In this document: positions 13,001-62,820 of the stretch, in pieces
Position numbering within the stretch: the first letter of the stretch is position 1
Layout of the letters: each line of letters starts with the position of its first letter
Made by a program: the position numbers and the translations under genes
Assembly (NCBI GenBank): GCA_964358205.1
Contig: CAYHNZ010000001.1
Location: 3,168-67,167, forward strand
Source of the DNA: an uncultured Candidatus Saccharibacteria bacterium
GTDB lineage: Bacteria; Patescibacteriota; UBA1384; 2-12-FULL-50-11
DNA length: 64,000 nt
Direction of reading: 5' to 3'
Notes under the pieces: generated by a model
Told to the model about the DNA's origin: nothing
Databases searched by the model: none
What the model saw: the letters and a program-made list of their open reading frames with translations, nothing else

Positions 13001-16000
13001 GGCGCGACAGTGTTGTTTCGTGGGACAAGTCTTGGCTCGACCCCGGCCGCCAACATCTCGACCTTAAAGTTTACAACGGCGCCGATCGTTGTCGGCGGCG
13101 GCGGCGGTACGGGTACCACCACCATCAGTATTATCAAAGGCGCGTATGGGGACAATTCCCTGACTGGAACAGGGACAGACATGGTGACCCATAACGTTGG
13201 GAACACCAACGGTTTGCGACTTCTGAACGGACCTGGGTTTTCCGGTGAGTATGCAGCGAACCTGGGTACCGCTAGTGCCAACGTGAAATTGACAGGGGAT
13301 ACGGCCGCCACGACGACCAATACCAATTCGATTGTTCTGAACGGTGGCGGCGTCACGAACGCCTCGGTGACGTTGCCGATCGCCGCCACCGCCTTAGCCG
13401 GAAACATTTTAATTGCGACCGCCCATAACATTGCCGGCGCGAATACGGTGCTTGGTATAACAACATTCGAACTCAATGTTTTAGCGAACGCGGCCTCAAC
13501 CGTTTCGGCCACCGTTGGTACGGCCACGACTGGGTCGCTTACCCTGAGCGGGAGCGGGAATGTGACCTTTAGCGCGGCGAATCCATATACCGGTACAACC
13601 TTTATTAATAATGCGACGTATACCTATGGCGTGGCTAACGCGATCAGTTCCGGTGCGGCAACGGTGATTGGCGGCACCTATAATCTTAACGGCAACTCCG
13701 ATACGATCGGCGCCCTGAACGCGACAGGTGGCACCATTGCCACCGGCGCGGGCACCTTAACGCTTGGCGGTACTGTCACTACCGTCGCCAACGCCAATGT
13801 AACCTCGATAATTACTGGGAACCTCGCGCTGGGGGCAAACCGAATCTTTAACGTTGGTGACGGCCTGGTCGATAACGACCTCGTTGTTTCGGCGACGGTC
13901 ACCGGCGCCTTTACCGTGACGAAAAGTACGGGCACTGGGGTCTTAGTATTATCGGCGACCGACAGTACCTATAGCGGTAGCACCACGATTAGCACCGGAA
14001 CGTTTCGGTTCGGCAGTGGGGGGAGTGGCGCTAACGGTCCGCTCGGGACGACGGCCGCGGCGACTATTATTTCTAGCGGTGCGTCTCTTGATCTGAATGG
14101 CTATTCGTTAGCGACTGCCGAAGGACTGACTATCAGCGGTACGGGTGTTGGGGCAAACGGGGCAATTATGAACACATCATCGGCCGCCGCAACTTACCAG
14201 GGTCTAATAATCCTCGGCGCGGCGGCAACGATTACGTCGAACTACGGCGATATTACCATTTCCAATACCGGCAGTATGACTGGTACCGGATTTGCGTTGA
14301 CCTTGCGCGGTGCCGGGAATGGTTCAATAGCCACTCAAGTCAATACTTCCACGGGTGGTTCAAGGGTTAAAAATGGCTTAGGCACCTGGACGGTTTCGGG
14401 CGATGGTGGCTACACCGGCGTAACGACAATTACTCTGGGCGTATTAAAACTGGGTGCGGCTGGTGGCGCGACTAATACGCCGCTCGGCACAACCGGTACC
14501 AATACGACGATTGCCAGCGGAGCGATGCTGGACTTAAATGGTTTTACTCTTGGTACGGCCGAGCCCTTATCGATACAAGGCACCGGTATCGCCAACGCCG
14601 GGGCGATTACAACCAGCTCGGGGATCGCGACGAGTTACTCGGGGGCAATTACGATTGCGACCGCTTCCCGTATAACGAACTATGGCAACGGGACATTCTC
14701 ACTCAGCGGTGCAATTGCAGGCGGTGCCGTGGCCTTAACGACCGTCAACGCGCCGGGAACAATTACCCAGACAAGCGCCAGCGTCTGGTCGGGTACGACA
14801 TCGTCTCTCACAAAAGAAGGCTGGGGGACGACGATTTTGGCGGGTCAAAACTCAATCACTGGCTCGATGACCGTCAGTTCCGGCACTCTCCAGCTCGGGG
14901 CAAACGGCGGCGCGGCGAATACTCCGACCGGGACTATTGCCGGAGGCGTGATTGTTTCGGCCGGTGCCGTGTTTGATTTGAGCACCTTCGTGTTGGGCGG
15001 CGCATCCACCTGGGAGCCACTAACCCTTAACGGTTCGGGCATCAAAAACGGCGGCGCCTTAATTAGTGCCGCCACCAGCGGTAATAACTTTGGCGTGGTG
15101 ACTTATGGATCGAGTGCCCGCGTCGTCAACAACGCTTCGGGGACGATTACCTTTGTCGGTGCGCCAACCGGAACCTTTAACTACGTTTTCGGCGGGACAG
15201 GTCCGATCACTATTACGGGTGTAATGCCGGCGGTGGCGATTACCATCACCAAATATGACTCTGGGATCCTGCTCTTAAATGGTGCACATCTCAGCACTGG
15301 ACTGATTCGTATTAACGGCGGGACGGTCAGATACGGCGTGGCCAATGCGATTCTGGTGAACGCCGTGACCATTGCCGGCGGGACGCTCGATATTAACGGT
15401 CAGACCGATGCCGTTGGTGCCATTATCCTGATGAGCGGCACGATTACCAACGGCGGCGCGGCCGCGACGCTAACTGGAACAGCCTATACGTTTTACGGGG
15501 GCGCCATTACCGCAGTGCTGGCCGGAACGGCAATCGCAATGGCGAAAAACACCGGCGCCACGCTGACGATCAACCAAGCTTTGACGAATACCGGTACCTT
15601 AACTATCAACGCCGGCACGGTCCAGTATTTGGCTAGCAACGTCGTGGCTAACACCGCCGCGGTCATCGTGGCTGGCGGCACGCTGGATATCGGCGCGCAA
15701 ACGGATACCGTGGCCGCCGTGACCCTGACCAGCGGAGCGATCACTGGCAGTACCGGAATTTTAACCGGCACTTCCTACGCCGTTGCCAGTGGCACGATCA
15801 GCGCGATTTTAGCCGGCGCGGTTACTCTGGCCAAAACCACGGCCGGTACGGTCACGCTCTCGGGTGTGAATACGTACTCGGGCGTTACGACGATCAGCGG
15901 TGGAGTCTTAAGTGTTGGCACTATTGGTAATGGTGGTGTGGCCGGGAACCTGGGAGCGGCGCCGGCCGCCGCATCCAATATTGTTTCCAATACCGGTACC

Positions 16001-19000
16001 GGGACATTGCAATATACCGGCACGACCTCGTCGACTGACCGCAGCATTACGACGACCGCGGCGATCACTTTAAATCTTGATATTACAAATCCTGCCGCAG
16101 CGCTAACCATTTCGGGGACGACGACTGTAACGACTGCGCCGTTCACGAAAGTTGGACCAGGGACACTGATCTTGTCGGGCACGAACGGTCATACGGGGCT
16201 AACCACGGTCCTGGCTGGGACGCTAAAAGAGGGCGTCGCCAGTGCACTCTCAACGGGAGCGTTAACTGTTACGAACGGGACATTCGATCTCAATAACTTC
16301 TCGGATAGTGTCGGGACAACCACTCTTACTAACGGTGGGCAGATGATCGATTCCGGCGGTACGACCGCGGTTTTGACTAGTACAGCAACTTACGCATTGC
16401 AAAGCGGTAAGATCAGCGCCCGACTGGGTAGCGCCGTTGCTGCCGGTATCTCTAAAACGACAACGGATCGGGTTATTCTTTCCGGCGACAATACGTTTAC
16501 CAGCACCTCTATAGCCTTGAGTGCCGGCGCCCTGAACCTTCAAAGCAACAACGCGCTCGGCGCTGCCGGTACGACCTTAACGACCACCATTACCTCGGGC
16601 GCGGCTCTGGAAACCCAAAATAATATTACGATTCCCAGCACCAAGCCAATTACGGCTAACTTGGGCGGCGTTAACAACAGTGGCGCAATTAGGAATATCG
16701 CCGATGCCAATACGATTCAAGCCAACATCGTGCTTGGTGTGACCAACACTCGGGTGAACTCGGACAGCGGCACCCTCACCTTCCCAACCGTCTCCGGTAA
16801 CACCAACAATTTAATTGTGGGCGGCGCCGGCAATACGACAGTTACCGGTATTATTAGCACTACATCTGGCACCTTAACCAAAGACGGTGCAGGCACATTG
16901 ACGCTTCAAGGCAATAACAGTTATACGGGTCTGACAACGATCAGCGCCGGTGTCGTGAATGTTCGGCATGCCGCAGGTCTTGGCACAATTGCGGCCGGTA
17001 CCTCCGTCGCCGCTGGCGCGGCCCTGCAAATACAAGGGATCGTCACCGTTGGCGCCGAAACGTTAACGCTCAATGGCACGGGCGTTGCCAGCGACGGAGC
17101 GTTAAGAAATATCACCAACAATAATACTTATCAGGGTAATATTACTCTCAATACTACCAGTTCGATTGGCTCCGATGCCAACACGCTCACTCTAAGCGGA
17201 ACAATAACTGGCGGTGCATCCATTGGCTTAACTAAAGTTGGTGCCGGCGAGGTGTCAGCTTCCAATACGGTCACGGTTGGTGGCGACCTAACGATTTCAG
17301 CGGGAACCTTAACTGCCTCCAGCAACACCATTACGGTTAGCGGTAACTGGTCTAATAGCGGCACATTTACGGCCGGCGCGAGTACGGTGGTATTAAATGG
17401 GGGCGCCACCCAGACTTTATCCGGAACCATGACCACCACCAGCGCATTTAACAACCTAACCGTGACTAACGCCTTCGGTACCAACGCCTCGGACTGCGAA
17501 CGAACCAGCTTTGTGGCCTCGATCGATTTCGATGCTGCGGCCACGGTGACAACAAACCTAGTCTTTACGACCGCCAGTACCAGGGTGGAATTCAACAGCG
17601 GGTCAACCTATGCTTTTACCAACATCAACTGGAACGGTCAGGCATCAGGTACGAAAATTTACTTCCGCAACTCGGACGCTTCCGGTACCTGGTTATTAAA
17701 AGTCACCGGCACCCAAACTGCGGTCTCGTTTATTAATGTCTCCCGCTCCGACGCATCGGTCGTCGGCGGTAACGCCATTGTCGCCAACGACGGCACCAAC
17801 ACCGATTGCACCAATAACACCAACTGGACATTCCCGAGTAGCAATACTGCCCCAAATGCGCCAACTAGCTTGGCCCAAAAGCGCACAACCGATGTGGCGC
17901 TCGCCACCGGTGATTGGACCAATGAAACATCCGTTAAGTTTACGGCAACCGCCAGCGACACCGATAATCCCGACACACTGAAGCTCTGTATTGAAGCAAT
18001 TGCGATTGCCAGCAATTTTACTAACACCGACACCGGCTGTGGAAGCTTAACCGCCTATAGCGGTACACCAATCACTGTTACCGTCACCTTGTCTGGCCTA
18101 GTTACCAGTACCGAGTACAAATGGCAGGCGAGAATCAAGGACACGGCTGATGCCGCTTCGGCCTGGAGCGATTACGCCGCCAATGGGTCTAGTCGCGATT
18201 TTGGTGTTGATACAACCGCTTGTACGACCGCCACCGTTTACGATGGCAGTTCCGCTGGTGTAGATGCCGACTTTAACGATAGCTCGCTAACGGCGCTATC
18301 AGGCAACTGGGATGCTTTTACTTGTACTGTTTCGGGTCTGCAGAAGTATGAGTACTCAATCGGCGTGACCGCCGGCGGTACGACAATCAAGGGCTGGACC
18401 GATAACTCGACGACAGCATCGGTCACCGCCGGTAGCTTGATTTTACACACTAATGAGCTCTATTTCATTAACATCCGAGCGACCGACAACGCCAGCAACG
18501 TTTCGTCAGTGGTGTCGTCTAATGGCCAACAGGTTTTACCGTCGTTAAGTTTTACTATGGGCAGTAACACGATTAGCTTTACTAATTTAAATAGCACCAA
18601 CAACCGACTCGACACTAAAACCGTTAGTCTAACCACCAGCACTAATGCTTTCGGCGGTTATATTATTCGCCAGTACGCCGGTGGCTTACTAACCGACGGT
18701 ACCAATACCATACCGATGTTCTCGGCTGGCTCGTACGCCGCACCAGCTTCGTGGGGGACAGGGTTTTGCTCGGGTACAACTTGTGGTTACGGCTATACAT
18801 CTAACGACACAACTATCCAAGGCAGCAACTTATTTAGTAGTGGCACGCTTTATGCCCCCTTTAGCCAAACTCCTTCTGGCGATATTGTGGCCGATCACAC
18901 CGCCGCCGTTGACGGTACGAGCGGTGCAGTTAGCAACGAGTCGTTCACTATTACCCATAAAGTCGCCGTAACCGCTCTACAAGCGGCCAAAACCTATCAA

Positions 19001-23073: not shown

Positions 23074-23165
23074 ATTCACTTTACCACATTGCCGGGTAGT
23101 ATTTTCCTCACCCAAGAGACGGGTAATTGACTCTGGTTTATGATAAAATTGCAGAAGTATTTTCG

Positions 23166-23217
23166 CTCCGGGATCGGCTAAGGGCAGGCCTGCAGAATCT
23201 GGATCTGCCAACCTTGG
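23166..23217 (+). other. tRNA-Gln(CUG)-like 5' fragment (acceptor 5', D arm, anticodon arm, variable loop and T-stem 5' strand; lacks T loop and 3' acceptor)
   Basis: 'CTCCGGGATCGGCTAAGGGCAGGCCTGCAGAATCTGGATCTGCCAACCTTGG' aligns to the full tRNA-Gln at 23281. Confidence 0.55.
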
Positions 23218-23245
23218 CCCGCCCCGCACTTTACAGTCGTTATGC

Positions 23246-23453
23246 TCCCGAGTCGTCTACTACGAACTGACACTTTCTGTTCCGGGATCGTCTAGCGGTA
23301 GGACTGCAGATTCTGGATCTGCCAACCTTGGTTCGAATCCAAGTCCCGGAACAAAGTGTGTCAGTGAGAAGCGAGTCCGCCAACAAGCGGACGACAATGG
23401 TAGGACGCTAGGTTCTGGTCCTAGTAACCGGGGTTCGAATCCCTGCTCGGGAA
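23246..23453 (+). other. Interrupted 'outer' tRNA-Gln(CUG)-like gene: 5' piece 23246-23259 (acceptor + D-stem + first D-loop nt) and 3' piece 23397-23453 (rest of D loop to acceptor), separated by a 137-nt insert that contains the complete tRNA-Gln
   Basis: TCCCGAG...CTCGGGA acceptor pairing; 3' piece has anticodon stem CTAGG/CCTAG, loop TTCTGGT (CUG), T arm CGGGG-TTCGAAT-CCCTG. Confidence 0.5.
23281..23351 (+). tRNA. tRNA-Gln (anticodon CUG), complete cloverleaf, no encoded CCA; flanked by 12-13-bp inverted repeats (CTGACACTTTCTG / CAAAGTGTGTCAG)
   Basis: TCCGGGA-TC-GTCT-AGCGGTA-GGAC-T-GCAGA-TTCTGGA-TCTGC-CAAC-CTTGG-TTCGAAT-CCAAG-TCCCGGA-A; close to E. coli tRNA-Gln. Confidence 0.85.
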
Positions 23454-23711
23454 CAGTTTAGGGTTGGTAACGATTGCCTCCTTTAACGATGAGCGTTGCT
23501 TCCTTTGCCAATCTTTTTGTGATGTACTACACTTAATGAAGGTACGATCAGGGAAATTAAATGTGGCAAATTGGCCTAATGACTCTTGCTCGGACAGCAA
23601 TTTTCAAGTAGAGTGTGACTTGCACGTTAGGTTATAGGCTGTTGCGGAGTTGAAAAGCAGAAAGGCTCTACTGCGGAGTGTTATTAGACTGGCTTGCCGG
23701 TATCGAACGCA

Positions 23712-52373: not shown

Positions 52374-52440
52374 ACTTTTCTGGCAATCTGGGGGTAAGAT
52401 GTTTCCGCCGTCCGCCAGCCAGCGGAGGAGGACGGCAGAG
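52374..52440. repeat. Leader repeat copy 1 (ACTTTTCTGG.AATCTGGGGGTAAGATGTTTCCGCCG... with GC hairpin)
   Basis: Near-identical to copies at 52914 and 55961. Confidence 0.8.
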
Positions 52441-52456
52441 TCTAACCTTACTTTCG

Positions 52457-52771
52457 CTAAGCTAGTGGCAAACCGGTGCGTTTAATTTCCGTAGCGAAGA
52501 AATTTAGACGGTCGTCAAAATCCGTGCTTCGAATCGGATGAGGCTCGATCATATCGGTCTGGTCATTGCGAAGATTCATTAACCGAACTCTTTCGGCTTG
52601 ACGGTCATCGCTGAAATCCGCCGAGACGACACAAAGATCGATGTCACTGTCTATGTGTTCAGTGCCCTTGGTTCGTGAGCCGAAAATATAAGCTCGTTCC
52701 GGGTTGATGCCCGAGTTTCGAACCAGTTGCAGATAGAGTTCGGCTGTTTTTAAAGTCTCTGATTTAGTCAT
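52457..52771 (-). CDS. Minimal nucleotidyltransferase (MNT) domain protein (type VII TA antitoxin-like / Pol-beta superfamily)
   Basis: 'AYIFGSRTKGTEHIDSDIDLCVV' GS..(11)..DxD motif; 104 aa. Confidence 0.65.
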   Translation of the reverse strand: MTKSETLKTAELYLQLVRNSGINPERAYIFGSRTKGTEHIDSDIDLCVVSADFSDDRQAERVRLMNLRNDQTDMIEPHPIRSTDFDDRLNFFATEIKRTGLPLA

Positions 52772-52913
52772 TAATCTTTTGGGCGAAGGAAAGGTAGAAT
52801 TCCTCCACCACCTTCAGCCATTTTTCAGCGTACTGCTCGGTTGCTTTCAGGAAGACATCCCATTCTGTCATTTTCTAATTTGAGTTTAACAAAAGGGGTC
52901 GCCCAAAGCCAGT

Positions 52914-52984
52914 CATTTTCTGGTAATCTGGGGGTAAGATGTTTCCGCCGGCTGGCGGAGTGATTTTTGAAGGCGAAAGTTGAG
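52914..52984. repeat. Leader repeat copy 2 (contains CCGCCGGCTGGCGG hairpin and 'GAAGGCGAAAG')
   Basis: ~95% identical to copy 3 over ~70 nt. Confidence 0.8.
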
Positions 52985-55960: not shown

Positions 55961-56113
55961 ACTTTTCTGGTAATCTGGGGGTAAGATGTTTCCGCCGGCT
56001 GGCGGAGTCATTATTGAAGGCGAAAGTTGACTTGTCCTCCGAAGCCTCGGCGAAGGTGGGGAAAGCTGTTAACCGTTCCGCCGGCTGGCGGAGACAAGAT
56101 GGCGGGAACGGGT
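55961..56113. repeat. Leader repeat copy 3 (55961-56030) plus adjacent partial copy/hairpin CCGTTCCGCCGGCTGGCGGAG...GGCGGGAACGG (56073-56111)
   Basis: Read directly. Confidence 0.8.
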
Positions 56114-56170
56114 TAGAAGGTTCGGGAGTATGAGGGTGTAATTTTGTATTGATAAAATTAGATCACGGCT

Positions 56171-56590
56171 ATGGATACTATTAAGATATATCGAGCTAAG
56201 ACTGGGCGATGGGGCGGAACGAGCTTTGACGAACTAATTAAAAAAACTCGTCGCTTGTTTAAGGAGATTGAAAGTAATCCGAGACGAAAGCTACATATCC
56301 GTTCGGCGTATTTCAAGAAGGAGAAAATATTCTTTGATTATTTCTGGCCACACCTTAATCAAAAACCACCTCGCCAGCGCCAGAAAAGATTAGCCTACTT
56401 GGAATGTGGTATTGAGTTACTCCAAAATTCTCATCACGCTCCGACATCAAAAGCAAATCCCAATAGGAAGTCTGAACTTTTGCACCGCTTTGCGGGAGTA
56501 ACCAAAGACGACGAACTATTTTTTGTGCAAGTCAAAGAAGATACTAAAACCAAGAAAAAGTTTCTAATGTCAGTTTTTCCACCAGACTAA
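56171..56590 (+). CDS. Hypothetical protein (139 aa)
   Basis: ORF only. Confidence 0.3.
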   Translation: MDTIKIYRAKTGRWGGTSFDELIKKTRRLFKEIESNPRRKLHIRSAYFKKEKIFFDYFWPHLNQKPPRQRQKRLAYLECGIELLQNSHHAPTSKANPNRKSELLHRFAGVTKDDELFFVQVKEDTKTKKKFLMSVFPPD

Positions 56591-56655
56591 CAAAAAATCC
56601 CCCGCAAGTGAGGTATATCAACCTCGTGCCGGAGATTCTTCTTGAACCAAAGATA

Positions 56656-57789
56656 TCATTTACCTGGCAGGCTGTCAATAGTCACAGACCCCAATTTCTC
56701 GGCGACTAATTCCCAGGGGTTAGTAAAGCGGTGATTGCCAACACATTTTTGGAGCTCCCGAAAATTTTCAAAGTTACACTCGCTTTTTAGATAGTCGCCC
56801 AGATCTTTGTTGGTGCTACTTATATAGGCCAGAGTTTGTTTGCAAGAAACAGACTCCGCAAAGGCTTTTCTGAATTCACTCTCATTTTGGCAGTTGTCCT
56901 TTAGGATGATTGAACCCAGGATCAAATCTCGAGTCAGAGACGGCGGGCCGAGATTACCAGTTGCAATAATAGAATCGACACTGGAGGCTTTCTCCATTTT
57001 CTCAAGCAGAGAATCTCTGATCTCTAGGTCTTCTTCATCTTGAGAGACAATGGTTTGGTTGAGGGCTTTAATTACATCGTAGGAGGATGAGTGTTTCTCC
57101 TCCATCTCTTCTTCTTCGATGACTGAAAAAACTTTTTCGGCGATCTTTTCGGCAGTGGTGAAACCCATAAAGGCAGTGAGAATTGCCAGCTCATTATAGG
57201 TGTAATCGCCGTTTTCCCCACCATCGGAAGTGACGACTTTCACTCCGTCCAAGCTCTTTTTCGTAAAACTATCTTGGAAAATCGCGAGACCAGGCTTAAT
57301 TTCGGAAACCTTGTGGTTATTATCGCCGAAGGATCGAGAGAGCAGGGTTAACAAGATCGTGCATATGCCCGCATACGAGGCTTTGTAAAATAGGGGTAGA
57401 TTGCTAAGTTTCTCCCCGTGACTAAATGGTACATTCATTCCCATTCCACCAGACCCGGTTGTTCCAACCTGAATATAGTGAACTTCCTTCAACTTTTTCA
57501 GAACTGGATAGAGGCCTACGTGAAATTTGGTGATGTCAGTTAGATTGTCGTGTGATTTGCGGAAAAATATCGTGGCGATATTTAAGCAGTTGACGATCAC
57601 ATTTGGAGTGATTTTATCGACTATTTCTGCTAAGCTGTCGAGATTTAAAACATCAAGTTGTATGGAATCAATATCTTGTGAGCTGAACTTCTTAAGATCA
57701 GCTCCGGTTACCTCGTAACCTTTTTCCAATCCAATCTCGCAAATCTTTCTGCCAACAGATCCCGCTCCACCCAAGACCAGTATTTTCAT
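56656..57789 (-). CDS. NAD(P)-binding Rossmann-fold dehydrogenase (saccharopine-dehydrogenase-like)
   Basis: 'MKILVLGGAGSVGRKICE' N-terminal GxGxxG; 377 aa. Confidence 0.4.
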   Translation of the reverse strand: MKILVLGGAGSVGRKICEIGLEKGYEVTGADLKKFSSQDIDSIQLDVLNLDSLAEIVDKITPNVIVNCLNIATIFFRKSHDNLTDITKFHVGLYPVLKKLKEVHYIQVGTTGSGGMGMNVPFSHGEKLSNLPLFYKASYAGICTILLTLLSRSFGDNNHKVSEIKPGLAIFQDSFTKKSLDGVKVVTSDGGENGDYTYNELAILTAFMGFTTAEKIAEKVFSVIEEEEMEEKHSSSYDVIKALNQTIVSQDEEDLEIRDSLLEKMEKASSVDSIIATGNLGPPSLTRDLILGSIILKDNCQNESEFRKAFAESVSCKQTLAYISSTNKDLGDYLKSECNFENFRELQKCVGNHRFTNPWELVAEKLGSVTIDSLPGK

Positions 57790-57842: not shown

Positions 57843-59312
57843 ATGAAACTAAAGACCATTACGGGGGAAGCAAAGATTCAAACCCATGAGACCGAGGGGA
57901 TAATTCCCGGGTTTCAACATGCTTTGACTTTATTCAAGCAAGCGTCAATCAATGTCCCGGCATATAAGGCTTTTTTGAAAAGTCACGGAGTGGATCCTAA
58001 AAAAATCAACACTCCAACTGACTTTTCCCGACTCCCCATAATTACCAAGGAGAATTACCTAAAGAAGTATCCGCTACAGGAATTGATGTGGCAGAGAGGA
58101 GTTAGCGACGCTCGGATGATATCGGCTAGTTCAGGGTCGAGCGGACAACCGTTTTTTTGGCCAAGAGGCAATCAAAGCGTTGAAGACTCGGTCGTGATAC
58201 TGGACGAGCTGTTAGACAAGACCTTTCAGACCAAAACCAAAGAGACACTGTGTATCAACGCCTTTGCCATGGGGACATGGATTGCCGGTACTTATATGAA
58301 TTCGGCAATGTGGCGATTGGCTGATTTAGGGCATCGGATAGTCACCATTACGCCCGGAATTACCAAAGAGGAAATTGCTCGCGAACTTGAAGTGTTGGGA
58401 CCAACTTTTCAGCAGGTTCTAATTATGGGTTATCCACCTTTCGTCAAAGATGTCGTCGATTATGCGAAAACCCGTAATATTAAACTCGCTCGACTCGATA
58501 TAAAGTGCTTATTGGCCGGTGAGAACTTTTCCGAGCAATGGCGAGACTACATTCTAGCGAGGATTGGCAAGAAGAACCAACCAGAATCAACTCTGGGGAT
58601 GTATGGAACTGCGGATGCGGGAATAGTTGGTACAGAAACACCCTTATCGATATTTATCAGAAGACTCTCTGCCGATGACCGCCGACTGTACGAAGCTCTT
58701 TTCGGTAACGACTCTATTTTGCCAACTCTGGTTCAATACAATCCCGATCTTCGTTATGCAGAAGAGATCGACGGTAAAATCATCTTCACAACCGACAACT
58801 CCTTGCCCCTGATAAGATATGAGATATTAGACGAAGGCAGAGTCTTGACACCGAGTATGGTTAATAACGTACTTGGCCGGTTTGGAAAGAGAATCCCAGC
58901 TGAAATGAAACCATTTTCTGACAACCCATACATTGCCCTCTATGGAAGACAGGATGTGGCGGCGACATTCTACGCCCTAAATATTTATCCAGAGAATGTT
59001 AAATATGGGCTAGAGATTCCAGCTCTTCAAGCAATTGTGACGGGGAAATTCGTCATTAAGGCCGAATTCGACGACACAACACAAACGCAGGCGTTAGACT
59101 TAAGTGTCGAGCTCCAGCCGGGAGTAAAACCAGACCAAAAGATCGAGAGGAAAATATTTAAAGCGGTTGTCGACAGTTTAGTGCAGAACAACAGCGAATA
59201 CAGCAAGTTATACCAGGAGATTGGCAAGAAGGCGGAGCCGATCGTGCATCTGATGGAGCAAGGGAATCCGGATTTCAAGCCAGGAATTAAGCACCGTTGG
59301 TTTAAGAAATGA
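57843..59312 (+). CDS. Adenylate-forming enzyme of the PaaK / coenzyme F390 synthetase-like family
   Basis: 'SASSGSSGQPFFWPR' (cf. PaaK SSGTTGKP); ~490 aa; start set at 57843 because 57798 would sit 8 nt from divergent gene start. Confidence 0.55.
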   Translation: MKLKTITGEAKIQTHETEGIIPGFQHALTLFKQASINVPAYKAFLKSHGVDPKKINTPTDFSRLPIITKENYLKKYPLQELMWQRGVSDARMISASSGSSGQPFFWPRGNQSVEDSVVILDELLDKTFQTKTKETLCINAFAMGTWIAGTYMNSAMWRLADLGHRIVTITPGITKEEIARELEVLGPTFQQVLIMGYPPFVKDVVDYAKTRNIKLARLDIKCLLAGENFSEQWRDYILARIGKKNQPESTLGMYGTADAGIVGTETPLSIFIRRLSADDRRLYEALFGNDSILPTLVQYNPDLRYAEEIDGKIIFTTDNSLPLIRYEILDEGRVLTPSMVNNVLGRFGKRIPAEMKPFSDNPYIALYGRQDVAATFYALNIYPENVKYGLEIPALQAIVTGKFVIKAEFDDTTQTQALDLSVELQPGVKPDQKIERKIFKAVVDSLVQNNSEYSKLYQEIGKKAEPIVHLMEQGNPDFKPGIKHRWFKK

Positions 59313-59338
59313 ACGAGGAATACGAGCCGATATTCTTC
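59268..59338 (+). repeat. Direct repeat DR1 (~71 nt) spanning the 3' end of the adenylate-forming gene and a 10-codon relic 'MNEEYEPIFF*' of the E1-like gene start
   Basis: ~88% identical to 60593-60663. Confidence 0.8.
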
Positions 59339-59350
59339 TAAATAAAACGA

Positions 59351-59920
59351 ATGAATAAGCCTCAATTACAAATAATTAATTCCAAAGTTTACAATAATAC
59401 TATCCGCCTCTGGCTGGGTCGAGACGATTATTTAAGTCACGACGAGCTCGATGAGTATTGCGTCGCGCTCAAGACAGAGTGGAACAAGGGCGGCGATACA
59501 TTTATAGAGTTAATGATAAAGTGCTTGGGATGGCCGTGGGCTGAAGATGTAGTTAAATGTTATGTCACCGGCACTCGAGCCAGCTTTTCTAGTCCGTTGA
59601 CCGTCGGGTACAAGAAAAATATTAATTTAGCGCTGAATGTATTAACTCACGAGCTTATCCATTGCTATATCAGTCAGCACATTCCCGAGCTTCGGAAGAA
59701 AATTGACGATTTCTACGCTGAATATTCGAACGAAAATCGATTGACCCAAAATCATATTATGGTTCATGCTATTCACGAATATATTTACCGTAACACAAGC
59801 AGAGTTGAAGAATTGGAAGCAGATATTAAGAGTTGCCAGTCAGCACCAGACTACGCCAAATCTTGGGAGATTGTTGGTCGAGTCGGCTATCAAGAGGTTG
59901 TAAAGAAAATAGCCCGCTGA
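59351..59920 (+). CDS. Hypothetical protein with HExxH motif ('LTHELIHCY'), possible metallopeptidase-like
   Basis: ORF; motif only. Confidence 0.3.
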   Translation: MNKPQLQIINSKVYNNTIRLWLGRDDYLSHDELDEYCVALKTEWNKGGDTFIELMIKCLGWPWAEDVVKCYVTGTRASFSSPLTVGYKKNINLALNVLTHELIHCYISQHIPELRKKIDDFYAEYSNENRLTQNHIMVHAIHEYIYRNTSRVEELEADIKSCQSAPDYAKSWEIVGRVGYQEVVKKIAR

Positions 59921-59964
59921 GATTTTGGTCTCAAGGGGCTAAGGGTGTTCGGAGCGGGTTGTTG

Positions 59965-60441
59965 CTACGCTCCCGTGCAACGACTGGTGCAACCGCCTTC
60001 GCCGCTACCACCGTCACCGCCGCATTCGCTGGGAGTGCTACAGTCACCGGCCTTGCCTTGTGGCCAGTAGATTGGATTCAGTTTGCCGAAGCGTAGGCGG
60101 AGTGCGGTCAGAGTCCGTTTGTAAGCGGACTTAGCTGGTTCATCGCTCGGAGAGTGGTGGATGAACTGGCTGAAGTGTTGCGTACAGAACTTGGCGTATT
60201 CCTGCGTGTGGAGGACGAAGCTGTGCCACATCTCGTCAATGATGAGAGATGGCGCATGTGTCTTGTCGGGCTTTTCAGCACAAACGATGAGGAATTTCTT
60301 GCACTCCTCGAACTGCTGGCGTGCTTCTGGTTCGGAAACTTCATATTTCCGACAAAAGTTCATGATGAGTAGGGGAGGAGGTTGATAAGCCATCACCTCC
60401 TCTGCGTTGACGATGTTAACGGTGCTTAATACAGTAGCCAT
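59965..60441 (-). CDS. Hypothetical protein with structured N-terminal domain and Cys/Gly-rich C-terminal tail (CSTPSECGGDGGSGEGGCTSRCTGA)
   Basis: ORF; tail composition. Confidence 0.35.
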   Translation of the reverse strand: MATVLSTVNIVNAEEVMAYQPPPLLIMNFCRKYEVSEPEARQQFEECKKFLIVCAEKPDKTHAPSLIIDEMWHSFVLHTQEYAKFCTQHFSQFIHHSPSDEPAKSAYKRTLTALRLRFGKLNPIYWPQGKAGDCSTPSECGGDGGSGEGGCTSRCTGA

Positions 60442-60592
60442 TTAGGTATCCTCGTATTTTTTCTCAAAGAAGGATCCTTGAGAAGCTCAAGATACAACTT
60501 TATTAATTCATAATCAATAGTTTAACCCCAAGTCAGCCATTTTATGCTAGTCTAAAGGCAAGATGTCGTCATTTCTAAAGGAAATTCTCTTC

Positions 60593-60663
60593 CCGGATTT
60601 TAAGCCAGGAGTTAAGCATCGTTGGTTTAAGCGATGAACGAGGAATATGAGCCGAGATTTTTT
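60593..60663 (+). repeat. Direct repeat DR2: relic 3' end of an adenylate-forming gene ('...FPDFKPGVKHRWFKR*') fused to the true start of the E1-like gene
   Basis: Aligns to 59268-59338 with ~8 mismatches. Confidence 0.8.
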
Positions 60664-61797
60664 CAGTCTCGTGAACATTCTGATGTCAAGGAGCTTATTA
60701 AGGAAGGAAAAATTCGTGAGGTTATTGATAATCTTTCAGAAGAGCTGGAGAATCTATTTCGCATAAACTTTCCCTTCATAACCCCCGCTACCCCAGAGTA
60801 CATCACTACTTTTCAGAAGTTTCTCGGTAGATATCTGAACGGGAAGAAAGAAGCTGAGGTTGGGGTTTGGGCTTACTATCCTTGGAAGCAAACTTTGGTT
60901 CACTTACCCGAAAGTGCAGACTTCTTTAAACTAAGAACTTCCAGAAACAAATTTTTAATAAATAATGAAGAACAGCAGAAGTTCTATAGCTCAAAGATAG
61001 GTATAGCTGGTCTCAGTGTTGGACTCGCAGCCGTAAACTCACTCGTGTTATCAGGCGGTGGTGGGCAAATGAGAATCGCGGATTTTGATAATCTATCCAT
61101 TACAAATTTGAATAGATTGCACTCATCGGTATGTGATTTGAACAGAAGTAAAGCAGCTATTGCCGCAAGAAAGGTTTACGAAATAAATCCTTTTCAAGTT
61201 CTCGAAGTCTTCCGGGATGGAATAACAACAAAGAACATAAGCAAGTTTTTTGGGAGGGGGAGTGATAAACTCGACATTTTTATTGAGGAGATAGATGATA
61301 TTAAGCTGAAAATAGACACGCGAATCTGGGCTAGAAAACTAAAGATACCTGTCGTTATGGCTACAGACAACGGAGATAATGCAATCATTGATGTGGAAAG
61401 ATTTGATTTGGAGCCTAATCGGAAGTTGTTTCACGGTAGAATTGAGGAATCAAAGCTCCTAAGCGTTGGGGAGAACCTTGGAATGACGGAGAGAATAAGG
61501 CTAGCTAGCGCAATCGTTGGAGCAGATATTACTCCGAGGACACGCATGTCGCTCACTATGGTGGGAACAAAAATACCAGCATGGCCCCAGTTAGGCAATG
61601 CAGCAACCCTCTCTGGTGTGGCGGTGAGCTACGTTTCAAGAAGAATACTTACGGGGTTAAGTATGCCCTCTGGTAGGTATGAAGTATCGCTTGACGAGAA
61701 ACTTGATCCCACCTACTTCAGAGGTTCATCTGTACAAGAGAGGGAAATAGACAGAAAAGAGTTCATTTTTACGCTTGGTAAAATATTCGGGAGTTAA
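60634..61797 (+). CDS. E1-like ThiF/MoeB-family adenylyltransferase with ~110-aa N-terminal extension
   Basis: 'KIGIAGLSVGLAAVNSLVLSGGGGQMRIADFDNLSITNLNRL' (GxGxxG + DxDx5NLNRQ-like). Confidence 0.7.
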   Translation: MNEEYEPRFFQSREHSDVKELIKEGKIREVIDNLSEELENLFRINFPFITPATPEYITTFQKFLGRYLNGKKEAEVGVWAYYPWKQTLVHLPESADFFKLRTSRNKFLINNEEQQKFYSSKIGIAGLSVGLAAVNSLVLSGGGGQMRIADFDNLSITNLNRLHSSVCDLNRSKAAIAARKVYEINPFQVLEVFRDGITTKNISKFFGRGSDKLDIFIEEIDDIKLKIDTRIWARKLKIPVVMATDNGDNAIIDVERFDLEPNRKLFHGRIEESKLLSVGENLGMTERIRLASAIVGADITPRTRMSLTMVGTKIPAWPQLGNAATLSGVAVSYVSRRILTGLSMPSGRYEVSLDEKLDPTYFRGSSVQEREIDRKEFIFTLGKIFGS

Positions 61798-61803
61798 TAA
61801 AAG

Positions 61804-62820
61804 ATGTCAATTATAAATCCCTGGTTGATCGAAGAGAAGGATTTCGCAGCGGCTAAAGATCTTAGGAGCCAGATAAACTTCTGGTTGAAATACGCCGTAT
61901 TAGCGGCATCTGCGCACAATACCCAACCTTGGGGCTGTATCTTTAGAGACAACTCCCTAATTGTATATAGGGACGAAGATCGAACTCTTGGAAGCGATCA
62001 AACTACTAGATTGGCTCATATAGGTATAGGAGCGTTTATCGAAAATCTATCCATCGCATCAAAAAGCTGGGGGTATGAACCCAAAATACACATTACTGCT
62101 TTCTATCCTAATGAGTTAGAGATAGCTCATATTTCATTCGAGAAGGCCGTAGAAACTACAGGGAGAGATGATCTCGAGTTGTTCAAAGCAATAACCTCTA
62201 GACACACCAACAGGGGTCTCTATGTGCCAGGAAAGCTAGATGAATCCCTACTAAATAAAATTGCAACTGACAAAGAAGGTACCGCCAAATCTTTTGTAAT
62301 TACTGAGGAAAGTGGGAGAAAACGGATCGGAGAGCTGGTAGCAAAAGGCACCGACATAGCGCTATCGCTGCCCTTTATGAAAAGAGAGTTGGCAAGTTTT
62401 ATTTATTCCTCAAGCAAGCCTAGGGAAATAGGAATGCCAATAGAGTCAATGATTCCGGGTCAACTCAAGAACTTTATAAGACCAGAAACTGCAATAAAAT
62501 ATATGAATCCCGAATCGCTTGCTAGGGAAAATTTGAAAAAATATTCCCAAGCCCCCGCATTAGTAATAGTGGGAACTTATGAGGATGACCCTACGGCATG
62601 GATTGATGCGGGCAGACTCATGCAACGAACCTTACTTAGAGCAGCTGCAAAGGGCTACAGCCATGATATAGCAGCGGGACCTATTGAGATACCTACACTC
62701 CTTCCCATTCTCAGACAAGAGATACAACCCGATACAAGGCCTCAATTACTATTCAGAATCGGTCGAGCCGAAAAGTCTTCGTTATCAGTTAGCTCTGGTA
62801 GGAAAGCCGTAATAGTTTAA
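61804..62820 (+). CDS. Nitroreductase-family protein with tandem/extended nitroreductase fold (SagB-type dehydrogenase-like)
   Basis: 'AASAHNTQPW' nitroreductase signature; second half 'TSRHTNRGLYV'; 338 aa. Confidence 0.55.
   Translation: MSIINPWLIEEKDFAAAKDLRSQINFWLKYAVLAASAHNTQPWGCIFRDNSLIVYRDEDRTLGSDQTTRLAHIGIGAFIENLSIASKSWGYEPKIHITAFYPNELEIAHISFEKAVETTGRDDLELFKAITSRHTNRGLYVPGKLDESLLNKIATDKEGTAKSFVITEESGRKRIGELVAKGTDIALSLPFMKRELASFIYSSSKPREIGMPIESMIPGQLKNFIRPETAIKYMNPESLARENLKKYSQAPALVIVGTYEDDPTAWIDAGRLMQRTLLRAAAKGYSHDIAAGPIEIPTLLPILRQEIQPDTRPQLLFRIGRAEKSSLSVSSGRKAVIV

What the first reader, a model, noticed from the sequence alone, without database searches (positions are those of the whole stretch)
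59268..60663. Insertion scar: ~71-bp imperfect direct repeats spanning a gene junction flank a 1.25-kb two-gene segment
DR1 (59268-59338) and DR2 (60593-60663) are ~88% identical. Each covers the last ~14 codons of a PaaK-like gene (...PDFKPG[I/V]KHRWFK[K/R]*), the ATGA stop/start overlap, and the first 10 codons of the E1-like gene (MNEEYEP...). After DR1 the E1 start is truncated by a stop (MNEEYEPIFF*). Before DR2 only a 24-codon relic of a PaaK-like 3' end remains (MSSFLKEILFPDFKPGVKHRWFKR*). The 1,254 nt between them carry the HExxH protein gene and the divergently oriented Cys/Gly-tail gene. This looks like a cassette insertion, or a recombination between two PaaK-E1 modules, at a translationally coupled junction. 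That geometry resembles attL/attR sites of elements that target gene 3' ends, but no integrase is present.
Basis: seen in the sequence. Interest (0 to 1): 0.7.

Follow-up and report, generated by a model that had tools for sequence, protein, structure and literature searches.

The report
Gene cassette inserted at coupled gene junction
A two-gene cassette was inserted exactly where two overlapping enzyme genes meet in an uncultured groundwater bacterium, and 70 bases of that junction were duplicated so both genes stayed intact; this is a clean but ordinary recombination scar, not a new kind of mobile element.

Summary
DR1 (59268-59337) and DR2 (60593-60662) match at 62 of 70 bases. The same arrangement appears base for base in at least four independent groundwater assemblies, so it is not an assembly artefact.

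It is an insertion. A close relative (L013, PaaK 84% identical) has PaaK-ATGA-E1 uninterrupted. Its homology to the window stops at 59337 and resumes at 60593. PaaK directly followed by E1 is the usual order across Patescibacteria.

The inserted DNA (HExxH gene plus a UCP032817-like gene) is 78% identical to a stretch of another genome (L017). There it lies in an unrelated context with no repeats.

The "24-codon PaaK relic" is a chimera. Its ribosome-binding site, start codon and first codons belong to a dispersed ~70-nt intergenic element that travels with the cassette. Only the last 14 codons are PaaK tail.

The cassette encodes no recombinase: one protein has a zinc-peptidase fold and the other has no structural match.

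Most likely mechanism: host recombination, with a short homologous anchor plus a microhomology joint at CCGGATTT. Both junction copies were kept because one finishes PaaK and the other starts E1. Whether the copies came from two lineages or from one duplication in place is unresolved.

Interest is modest.

The parts
57843..59312 (+). PaaK-like adenylate-forming enzyme gene (489 aa), intact. Its last 14 codons and stop codon lie inside DR1.
   Evidence: NCBIfam PaaK models at E 1e-12, below their cut-offs. 3191 homologues, several named phenylacetate-CoA ligase family.
59268..59337 (.). DR1: the junction copy that completes PaaK and carries a truncated E1 head.
   Evidence: 61/70 identical to the single-copy junction of L013.
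59309..59341 (+). 10-codon E1-head mini-ORF (MNEEYEPIFF*). It overlaps the PaaK stop by ATGA and ends 9 nt before the HExxH start. Inferred to relay translational coupling to the HExxH gene.
   Evidence: Sequence reading. The coupling role is inference only.
59351..59920 (+). Cargo gene 1: a 189-aa HExxH protein with a minimal zincin (gluzincin-like) metallopeptidase fold.
59965..60441 (-). Cargo gene 2: a 158-aa UCP032817-like protein (PF27765) with a conserved Cys/Gly-rich C-terminal tail. About 55% G+C against about 43% for its surroundings.
60518..60585 (+). Degenerate copy of a dispersed ~70-nt intergenic element. It supplies the ribosome-binding site, ATG and first codons of the 24-codon ORF, and it travels with the cassette in L017.
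   Evidence: Local alignment of window 60528-60581 with L017 1808-1864: score 29 against shuffles 15.8 +/- 2.2, 0 of 2000. nhmmer E 7e-12. Other copies listed.
60563..60637 (+). 24-codon chimeric ORF (element-derived head plus PaaK-like tail). It overlaps the E1 start by ATGA and is inferred to act as a translational-coupling leader for E1.
   Evidence: In L035 a 50-codon element-derived ORF with a PaaK-like tail overlaps E1 in the same way although PaaK is absent.
60593..60662 (.). DR2: the junction copy that carries the PaaK-tail relic and the functional start of E1.
   Evidence: 63/70 identical to the L013 junction.
60634..61797 (+). E1-like (ThiF-fold) gene, intact. It corresponds to the N-terminal half of Rv1355c-family proteins.
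   Evidence: Pfam ThiF E 1e-15. NCBIfam Rv1355c family E 7e-92, below its cut-off, matching profile positions 9-341 of 722.
61804..62820 (+). Nitroreductase-fold gene (Acg family FMN-binding oxidoreductase type; C-terminal half of Rv1355c-type proteins). It is the third member of the conserved PaaK-E1-NR trio.
   Evidence: NCBIfam Rv3131_FMN_oxido E 7e-58, 196.6 bits against a cut-off of 199. Synteny table.

Best explanation
This is a genuine insertion of foreign cargo into the 4-base ATGA stop/start overlap region of a conserved PaaK-E1-nitroreductase operon in a Patescibacteria (CPR) genome.

The cargo is a zincin-like HExxH protein gene, a UCP032817-like gene and a copy of a dispersed ~70-nt intergenic element. 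It encodes no recombination function of its own. The most likely agent is host recombination, not a dedicated integrase. Either of two routes would give the same product:
- a short stretch homologous to the PaaK-tail/E1-head junction served as the anchor for homology-facilitated illegitimate recombination;
- or a circularised fragment carrying that stretch integrated by a Campbell-type single crossover.

On the right side, the joint between cargo and junction sequence lies at the 8-9-nt microhomology CCGGATTT(T). The cassette's own flank in L017 shares this sequence with the PaaK tail.

The product carries two copies of the 70-nt junction. DR1 completes PaaK and leaves a 10-codon E1-head ORF ending 9 nt before the HExxH start. 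DR2 gives E1 its start codon, preceded by a 24-codon ORF that begins with the element's ribosome-binding site and ATG and ends in ATGA. Both copies persist because deleting either one would truncate a gene.

What is shown: the insertion, the empty site, the cargo in another context, the chimeric nature of the 24-codon ORF, and the absence of a recombinase. What is inferred: the recombination pathway, the donor arrangement, and the preservation of translational coupling through the two mini-ORFs.
For: 1. Empty site. In L013, L033 and L034 the PaaK and E1 genes overlap by ATGA. Homology to the window ends at 59337 and resumes at 60593, so one 70-nt junction there corresponds to both DRs.
2. Ancestral order. 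PaaK is immediately followed by E1 in L014, L016, L022, L026-L029 and L031, which include Saccharibacteria and Woesebacteria genomes.
3. Cargo elsewhere. Window 59351-60482 is 78% identical to L017/L018 and 70% identical to L019. There the same gene pair lies between unrelated genes and no flanking repeats were detected at the scanned settings.
4. Collinearity with L017 continues into the start of the 24-codon ORF. That sequence is a dispersed element present at three other sites in the window and in L034, L017 and L035.
5. The L017 flank reads CTCTACCCGGATTTT. The window reads CTCTTCCCGGATTTT exactly at the left edge of DR2.
6. No recombinase. The HExxH protein has a zincin peptidase fold. 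The UCP protein has no structural match. Neighbours within about 8 kb are ordinary genes. There are no inverted repeats at the insert ends.
7. Precedent. Single crossovers of circularised fragments produce duplications of the homologous segment flanking the insert, and homology-facilitated illegitimate recombination is documented (PMC3240628; PMC5361080 and the references it cites).
8. Coupling. L035 has the same element-derived ORF overlapping E1 by ATGA although PaaK is absent. L011 keeps a 24-codon E1-head relic after PaaK, followed by a different gene.
9. A second case. In L022 a 56-nt repeat of a gene's 3' end flanks a UCP-containing 1.3-kb segment, with 9 synonymous and 3 non-synonymous codon differences (P about 4e-4). 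This implies that two orthologous gene ends were brought together there.
Against: - No donor genome with the required arrangement (cassette, element, PaaK tail, E1 head) was found. L017 has cassette plus element without E1, and L035 has element plus PaaK tail plus E1 without the cassette.
- Seventy bases at about 89% identity, with a longest perfect run of 14 nt, is a poor substrate for RecA-type recombination.
- The substitution pattern in the window's own repeats (4 synonymous, 3 non-synonymous, P about 0.07) does not separate copies from two lineages from one duplication that later diverged. One shared derived base (CCG in both DRs against CCA in L013, L014 and L035) hints that the two copies are close relatives.
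- The CCGGATTT match rests on a single comparison with L017, across a ~96-nt stretch that the window lacks.
- The coupling roles of the mini-ORFs are read from the sequence only. No expression data were available.
Confidence: 0.55

Rival explanations
1. One-step duplicative insertion in place. The cargo was joined at two staggered positions 70 nt apart in a single genome, for example by microhomology-mediated template switching during replication or by repair of a staggered break. The two junction copies were identical at birth and diverged afterwards.
For: - When the 8 differences are polarised with L013, L011, L014, L035, L037 and L038, the functional halves (PaaK tail in DR1, E1 head in DR2) carry only synonymous derived changes. 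The non-functional halves carry the two clearly polarised replacements (I to V, R to I); the K/R difference at DR positions 40-41 cannot be polarised.
- Both DRs share CCG where L013, L014 and L035 have CCA.
- The CCGGATTT microhomology sits at the right joint.
Against: - An 11% divergence means a long residence time in a streamlined genome, yet both relic reading frames are intact.
- DR1-DR2 (8 differences) is no closer than either copy is to L013 (9 and 7 differences).
- In L022 the analogous repeat clearly diverged under coding constraint.
- No mechanism with a 70-nt stagger is documented for bacteria (my own knowledge).
Confidence: 0.25
2. Site-specific integration. The cassette is a small integrative element that is mobilised in trans and carries an attP-like copy of the PaaK-tail/E1-head junction. 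An integrase encoded elsewhere recombined it with the chromosomal junction, and DR1 and DR2 are attL and attR.
For: - The geometry matches elements that replace a target gene's 3' end.
- A second UCP-containing segment of almost the same size (spacing 1310 against 1325) is flanked by a duplicated gene 3' end in L022.
- The dispersed element associated with the cassette lies at synteny breaks: between window and L034, and flanking a two-gene module at 52376-52983.
- The PaaK/E1 junction is in four different states among five close relatives.
Against: - No integrase lies in or near the insert.
- The same cassette in L017, L018 and L019 sits at other sites without repeats and without PaaK or E1.
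- The target in L022 is a different gene, so there is no common att sequence.
- Neither the cargo genes nor the element occur in IMG/VR viral contigs.
Confidence: 0.1
3. The interrupted arrangement is ancestral, and relatives such as L013 lost the insert by recombination between the two repeats.
For: Recombination between DR1 and DR2 would restore a perfect PaaK-ATGA-E1 junction, so an empty site alone cannot give the direction of the event.
Against: - PaaK directly followed by E1 occurs across distant Patescibacteria lineages, and none of the 20 or so other PaaK or E1 loci examined has the insert.
- The cargo occurs independently elsewhere.
- The UCP gene has a deviating G+C content.
Confidence: 0.04
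4. Assembly artefact: a chimeric join or a repeat expansion.
For: The source is a metagenome assembly built from short reads.
Against: Independent assemblies from several samples and two assemblers span both copies, three at 100% identity and one at 99.9%. The copies differ at 8 of 70 positions and are shorter than a read.
Confidence: 0.01

Closest known systems
Homology-facilitated illegitimate recombination (HFIR) and single-crossover integration of circularised fragments (de Vries & Wackernagel 2002 and Prudhomme et al. 2002, as cited in PMC5361080; E. coli conjugation study PMC3240628)
   Same: Foreign DNA with no mobility genes is inserted using one short homologous anchor plus an illegitimate joint. 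Single crossovers leave the homologous segment duplicated on both sides of the insert (109-950 bp in PMC3240628).
   Different: The anchor here is only 70 nt and the two copies are 11% diverged. The event is inferred from comparative genomics in an uncultured CPR bacterium, not observed. The duplicated segment straddles an ATGA gene overlap, so both copies remain under selection.
Displacement of effector-immunity modules in Vibrio cholerae T6SS clusters and 'orphan' 3' ends in Rhs/CDI loci (Kirchberger et al. 2017, PMC5361080)
   Same: An incoming module anchored on conserved upstream sequence is inserted, and the resident gene end is pushed downstream and retained as a relic. HFIR was proposed as the mechanism. 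The L022 case (a displaced 3' end of a membrane-protein gene) has this same form.
   Different: No toxin or immunity genes are involved. In the window the relic is 14 codons fused to an element-derived start and appears to have been co-opted as a coupling leader for the downstream gene.
Integrative elements and genomic islands that target gene 3' ends (tRNA, tmRNA or protein genes) and form attL/attR
   Same: Imperfect direct repeats made of the target gene's end flank the insert, and the target gene is restored.
   Different: There is no integrase. The insert is very small (1.25 kb). The same cargo occurs at other sites without repeats. The repeat also includes the start of the downstream gene.
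Transposon or IS target-site duplication
   Same: Direct repeats of target sequence flank an insertion.
   Different: The repeat is 70 nt rather than 2-15 nt and is not identical. There is no transposase and there are no terminal inverted repeats.

Membership tests
Integrase-mediated integrative element (attL/attR at a gene 3' end) | A tyrosine or serine recombinase encoded in the element or next to it | tested here: not met
Integrase-mediated integrative element (attL/attR at a gene 3' end) | Direct repeats of target-gene sequence flank the element, and an empty attB exists in relatives | tested here: met
   DR1 and DR2 are 62/70 identical. A single-copy junction is present in L013, L033 and L034.
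Integrase-mediated integrative element (attL/attR at a gene 3' end) | The same element recurs at the same att site in other genomes | tested here: not met
   In L017, L018 and L019 the cassette lies between unrelated genes with no flanking repeats and no PaaK or E1.
Integrase-mediated integrative element (attL/attR at a gene 3' end) | Excised circular form or excision polymorphism in the population | not testable with these tools
   No read-level data were available. All assemblies recovered carry the insert.
Transposon / insertion sequence | Transposase gene and terminal inverted repeats | tested here: not met
   No transposase. No inverted repeat pairs the ends of 59338-60593.
Transposon / insertion sequence | Short, identical target-site duplication | tested here: not met
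   The repeat is 70 nt with 8 mismatches.
Integron gene cassette | attC recombination site and a nearby IntI/attI platform | tested here: not met
   No integrase was found. The dispersed element has no significant fold (z scores -1.1 to 0.2) and matches no Rfam family. No dedicated attC model was run.
HFIR / single-crossover insertion scar (host recombination) | The cargo is foreign to the site and an uninterrupted site exists in relatives | tested here: met
HFIR / single-crossover insertion scar (host recombination) | A homologous anchor is shared by donor and recipient and is duplicated, or lies at one border | tested here: inconclusive
   The 70-nt repeat is the expected footprint. L035 shows that an element-plus-PaaK-tail-plus-E1 arrangement exists. 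No donor carrying cassette, element, PaaK tail and E1 together was found.
HFIR / single-crossover insertion scar (host recombination) | An illegitimate joint at a short microhomology | tested here: inconclusive
   CCGGATTT(T) is shared by the L017 flank of the cassette and the PaaK tail, exactly at the left edge of DR2. This rests on one comparison. The left joint (59338/59339) shows no clear microhomology.
HFIR / single-crossover insertion scar (host recombination) | DNA uptake and RecA-type recombination capacity in the host | not tested
   The window was not searched for com or recA genes. CPR genomes commonly encode ComEC and RecA (my own knowledge).

The most novel reading that the evidence does not exclude
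UCP032817-gene segments of about 1.3 kb, together with the dispersed ~70-nt element (TTTTCTGGTAATCTGGGGGTAAGATG...GAAGGCGAAAGTTGA), could be parts of an undescribed cassette-shuffling system in Patescibacteria that lacks its own integrase or is mobilised in trans. In this reading it inserts at gene ends, duplicates the target end, and brings its own promoter, ribosome-binding site and start module so that the downstream gene stays expressed.

Observations that fit this reading:
- two independent UCP-containing segments of near-identical size are flanked by duplicated gene ends (window and L022);
- the element sits at synteny breaks, and two copies flank a two-gene module at 52376-52983;
- the element has fused to the PaaK tail upstream of E1 twice, at different points (window and L035);
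- the PaaK/E1 junction is in four different states among five close relatives.
Probability: 0.1. Interest if true: 0.7.

Novelty: new member of a known kind. Interest (0 to 1): 0.3.

Why it matters
This is a well-resolved natural example of how a streamlined, uncultured CPR genome gains accessory genes without any mobile-element machinery. The occupied site, the empty site and the cargo in another context are all in hand.

It also shows how an insertion into an overlapping (ATGA) gene junction can be tolerated. The junction is duplicated, and each copy is left with a job: one finishes the upstream gene, and the other, fused to a portable ribosome-binding-site/ATG element, starts the downstream gene.

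The cargo genes (a zincin-like HExxH protein and a UCP032817-like protein) also lie near PaaK-E1-nitroreductase clusters and a conserved 460-aa membrane protein in other genomes. This gives a lead on the function of an uncharacterised, widespread Rv1355c-type enzyme set. None of this overturns current understanding.

Tried and rejected
- Assembly artefact: rejected. Independent assemblies from several samples and two assemblers reproduce both junctions.
- A second PaaK or E1 module in the same window as a recombination partner: none found by tblastn.
- The whole 24-codon ORF as a decayed PaaK 3' end: a PaaK-family HMM matches only its last 15 residues. The L017 small ORF versus PaaK C-termini is at best marginal: not significant against two of the three tails tested and 133 of 5000 shuffles against the third. 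The ORF's head is instead the dispersed element.
- The small ORFs next to the element as a conserved peptide gene: unlikely. Window copies carry a 19-nt GC-hairpin insertion that changes the frame.
- The element as a structured RNA: no Rfam family and fold z-scores near zero.
- The cargo proteins as hidden recombinases or nucleases: the HExxH protein has a zincin peptidase fold and the UCP protein has no match. PDB sequence searches were empty.
- A defence system: PADLOC gives only weak E1-E2 similarity for the E1 gene.
- Phage or plasmid carriage of the cassette: the HExxH gene is absent from plasmids. Neither gene nor the element is in IMG/VR. The UCP family is widespread on plasmids, but only as isolated hypothetical genes.
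- Promoter and terminator scans around the insert were no better than shuffled sequence.
- The synonymous/non-synonymous test on the window's own repeats was not significant.
- The literature search for UCP032817 found nothing.
Full report
OBSERVATION

The window contains one 70-nt direct repeat, 59268-59337 (DR1) and 60593-60662 (DR2), with 62 of 70 bases identical and a spacing of 1325 nt. blastn scores the pair at E = 6e-20.
- each copy holds the last 14 codons of the PaaK-like gene, the ATGA stop/start overlap and the first nine to ten codons of the E1-like gene;
- after DR1 the E1 frame stops after 10 codons (MNEEYEPIFF*, TAA at 59339-59341), 9 nt before the ATG of the HExxH gene (59351);
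- before E1 there is a 24-codon ORF (60563-60637) that overlaps the E1 start by ATGA.

The two inserted genes are convergent with each other: HExxH on the + strand (59351-59920) and the Cys/Gly-tail gene on the - strand (59965-60441).

The arrangement is not an assembly artefact. Independent assemblies from several Hainich groundwater samples span both repeat copies. ENA ERZ1292629, ERZ1292635 and Logan ERR3858116 are 100% identical to the window, and ERZ1292638 is 99.9% identical. The copies differ at 8 positions, so reads can tell them apart.

IT IS AN INSERTION

The nearest relatives with DNA in hand are L013, L033 and L034 (JGI metagenomes), with PaaK 84% and E1 89% identical in protein. 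They have PaaK and E1 overlapping by ATGA with nothing between them. Their homology to the window runs up to 59337 on the left and restarts at 60593 on the right. One 70-nt junction in these relatives therefore corresponds to both DRs.

PaaK immediately followed by E1 and then a nitroreductase-fold gene is also the order in L014, L016 and L022 and in several Saccharibacteria, Woesebacteria and other Patescibacteria genomes. The uninterrupted junction is therefore ancestral. Together E1 and the nitroreductase gene resemble a split Rv1355c-family protein.

THE CARGO

Window 59351-60482 is 78% identical in nucleotides to L017/L018 (NCBI MAG GCA_030699945.1) and 70% identical to L019. In those genomes the same convergent gene pair lies between unrelated genes: an acyltransferase and a GFO/IDH oxidoreductase in L017, and an LCAT-like gene and a MtN3-like gene in L019. 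PaaK and E1 are absent there, and no flanking direct repeats were detected at the settings used.

Neither cargo gene is found in IMG/VR viral contigs. No integrase or transposase lies in the insert or within about 8 kb, and the insert has no terminal inverted repeats.

THE "24-CODON PaaK RELIC" IS A CHIMERA

Collinearity between the window and L017 does not stop at the UCP gene. It continues to the ribosome-binding site, ATG and first codons of the small ORF. A local alignment of window 60528-60581 with L017 1808-1864 scores 29, against 15.8 +/- 2.2 for shuffles, and 0 of 2000 shuffles reach it.

That stretch is a copy of a dispersed element of about 70 nt: TTTTCTGGTAATCTGGGGGTAAGATG ... TCATTWTTGAAGGCGAAAGTTGA. 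It is also present at window 52376-52443, 52916-52983 and 55963-56030. The last two copies are 97% identical to each other. It also occurs in L034, L017 and L035.

In L017 the element opens a 47-49-codon ORF. In L035 it opens a 50-codon ORF that overlaps E1 by ATGA although PaaK is absent.
- The two ORFs are homologous over their first 34 residues (score 53 against 18.6 +/- 3.7, 0 of 5000 shuffles).
- The last 19 residues of the L035 ORF resemble the PaaK tail (3 of 5000 shuffles).
- A PaaK-family HMM matches only the last 15 residues of the window ORF.

The L017 flank reads CTCTACCCGGATTTT where the window reads CTCTTCCCGGATTTT, and DR2 starts at that CCGGATTT. So the left edge of the repeat coincides with an 8-9-nt microhomology between the cassette's own flank and the PaaK tail. 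The window lacks about 96 nt that L017 has between the ORF start and this point.

MECHANISM

The data fit host recombination acting on cargo that cannot move itself. A short homologous anchor (PaaK tail plus E1 head), combined with an illegitimate or microhomology joint, could act in two ways:
- as homology-facilitated illegitimate recombination;
- as a single crossover of a circularised fragment.

Both are documented. The single crossover is known to leave the homologous segment duplicated on both sides of the insert (PMC3240628; PMC5361080 and the references it cites).

I could not settle whether the two copies came from two lineages or from one duplication in place.
- The window's repeats differ by 4 synonymous and 3 non-synonymous codon changes (P about 0.07).
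- DR1-DR2, DR1-L013 and DR2-L013 differ by 8, 9 and 7 bases.
- One shared derived base (CCG in both DRs against CCA in L013, L014 and L035) hints that the copies are close relatives.
- When the differences are polarised with outgroups, the functional halves carry only synonymous derived changes. This is also compatible with divergence in place.

In a second, independent case the two-lineage reading is clear. In L022 a 56-nt repeat of the 3' end of a 461-aa membrane-protein gene flanks a 1.3-kb segment holding a UCP gene and a methyltransferase gene. The repeats show 9 synonymous and 3 non-synonymous codon differences (P about 4e-4).

WHY BOTH COPIES PERSIST (INFERENCE)

Neither E1 nor the HExxH gene has an obvious Shine-Dalgarno sequence (sequence reading). 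DR1 completes PaaK and provides an ATGA-coupled 10-codon ORF that ends 9 nt before the HExxH start. DR2, fused to the element's ribosome-binding site and ATG, provides a 24-codon ORF whose stop overlaps the E1 start.

L035 has an element-derived ORF overlapping E1 in the same way. L011 has PaaK, then ATGA, then a 24-codon relic of an L038-type E1 head, then a short-chain dehydrogenase gene. Both show the same kind of relay.

CONTEXT

The PaaK/E1 junction is a recurrent break point. Five PaaK genes that are at least 80% identical in protein are followed by four different things:
- the cassette (window);
- E1 of the window type (L013);
- a very divergent E1 (L038);
- an E1-head relic plus a dehydrogenase gene (L011).

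In the fifth, L037, the sequence diverges about 20 nt before the stop codon.

The window and L013 are about 86% identical to the right of the insert. To the left they are 70-80% identical, and PaaK is mosaic: codons 75-300 are 82-91% identical and codons 300-490 are 61-73% identical, with L037 the closest in the 3' third. dS is 1.38 for PaaK against 0.60 for E1 and 0.61 for the nitroreductase gene.

UCP or HExxH genes also lie next to a conserved 459-462-aa membrane protein in L017, L020 and L022, and next to a PaaK-E1-nitroreductase cluster in L022/L023. The cargo may therefore be functionally linked to the operon it entered.

VERDICT

The attL/attR resemblance is geometric only. The integrase, common-att-site and transposon criteria were tested and not met.

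This is a new instance of a known kind of event: an insertion scar from host recombination with duplication of the anchor. It has two neat features, the straddling of an ATGA overlap and the co-option of a dispersed element as a start module. Interest is modest at 0.3. About 10% probability remains that the dispersed element and the UCP segments reflect an undescribed cassette-shuffling system in Patescibacteria.

Noticed in passing
window 52376-52443, 52916-52983, 55963-56030 (degenerate copy at 60518-60585); L034 3392-3484; L017 1798-1877; L035 225-307: A dispersed intergenic element of about 70 nt, all copies in one orientation. It contains an extended -10-like TGGTAATCT, a Shine-Dalgarno-like GGGGGT and an ATG. 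Some copies carry an inserted GC hairpin (CCGCCGGCTGGCGG). Two window copies are 97% identical. It has no Rfam match, no significant fold and no match in IMG/VR. Its function is unknown.
   Followed up: partly
window 52376-52983: Two direct copies of the dispersed element flank a small two-gene module: a nucleotidyltransferase (NTP_transf_2) gene at 52457-52771(-) and a 35-codon ORF at 52764-52871(-). The layout looks like a cassette.
   Followed up: no
window 55963-56656 compared with L034 3392-3499: In L034 the element lies 18 nt from the 3' end of the epimerase-like gene. In the window a 139-aa gene (56171-56590) sits between them, and synteny to the left of the element is lost. The element therefore marks a synteny break or insertion point.
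   Followed up: partly
L022 5966-6021 and 7276-7331 (also L023, L024): A second scar of the same form. A 56-nt repeat (75% identical) of the 3' end of a 461-aa membrane-protein gene flanks a UCP032817-like gene plus a methyltransferase gene (spacing 1310). There are 9 synonymous and 3 non-synonymous codon differences. A PaaK-E1-nitroreductase cluster lies immediately upstream on the other strand.
   Followed up: partly
L035 1-430: A relative whose E1-nitroreductase pair lacks PaaK altogether. A tRNA gene on the - strand is followed by the dispersed element and then a 50-codon ORF whose last 19 residues resemble the PaaK tail. That ORF overlaps E1 by ATGA.
   Followed up: partly
L011 8473-8776; L038 1599-1948; L037 2580-2631: Close PaaK relatives (at least 80% identical in protein) differ right at the junction. 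L011 has a 24-codon relic of an L038-type E1 head and then a short-chain dehydrogenase gene. L038 has a very divergent E1 abutting PaaK (TAG then ATG). L037 diverges about 20 nt before the PaaK stop.
   Followed up: partly
window 57843-59312 compared with L013 138-1607: PaaK is mosaic relative to L013. Codons 75-300 are 82-91% identical and codons 300-490 are 61-73% identical, with L037 the closest there. dS is 1.38 against 0.60 for E1 and the nitroreductase gene, which suggests an older recombination break inside PaaK.
   Followed up: partly
window 60476-60492; L017 about 1735-1760; L019 about 8105-8130: A conserved imperfect palindrome (CTCAAAGA-N-TCCTTGAG) lies just upstream of the UCP032817-like gene start in three genomes. 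It could be an operator or a 5'-UTR hairpin.
   Followed up: no
L017 6056-7444, L020 7692-9071, L022 4647-6032: Homologous 459-462-aa multi-pass membrane proteins (51-55% identical) lie near HExxH and/or UCP genes in three genomes. None is present in this window. They may form a functional neighbourhood with the cargo genes.
   Followed up: partly
window 61074-61178 compared with L034 6440/6441: L034 lacks 105 nt (35 codons, in frame) of E1 that the window, L013 and L033 all have.
   Followed up: no
L005 1277-1430 (ERZ1292638): A strain variant with two substitutions across the region. In it the HExxH gene is called as 153 aa instead of 189 aa, so the start may be altered.
   Followed up: no
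window 59850-60300: The UCP032817-like gene has about 55% G+C against about 43% for its neighbours. Its N-terminal half is unusually conserved in nucleotides (83% identical to L022 over 218 nt).
   Followed up: no
window 23160-23455 and 9149-16958: Tandem tRNA-like units occur near 23.2-23.5 kb; Rfam confirms only one tRNA there, at 23281-23351. Diverged internal repeats (40-84 nt) lie within large genes at 9-17 kb.
   Followed up: no
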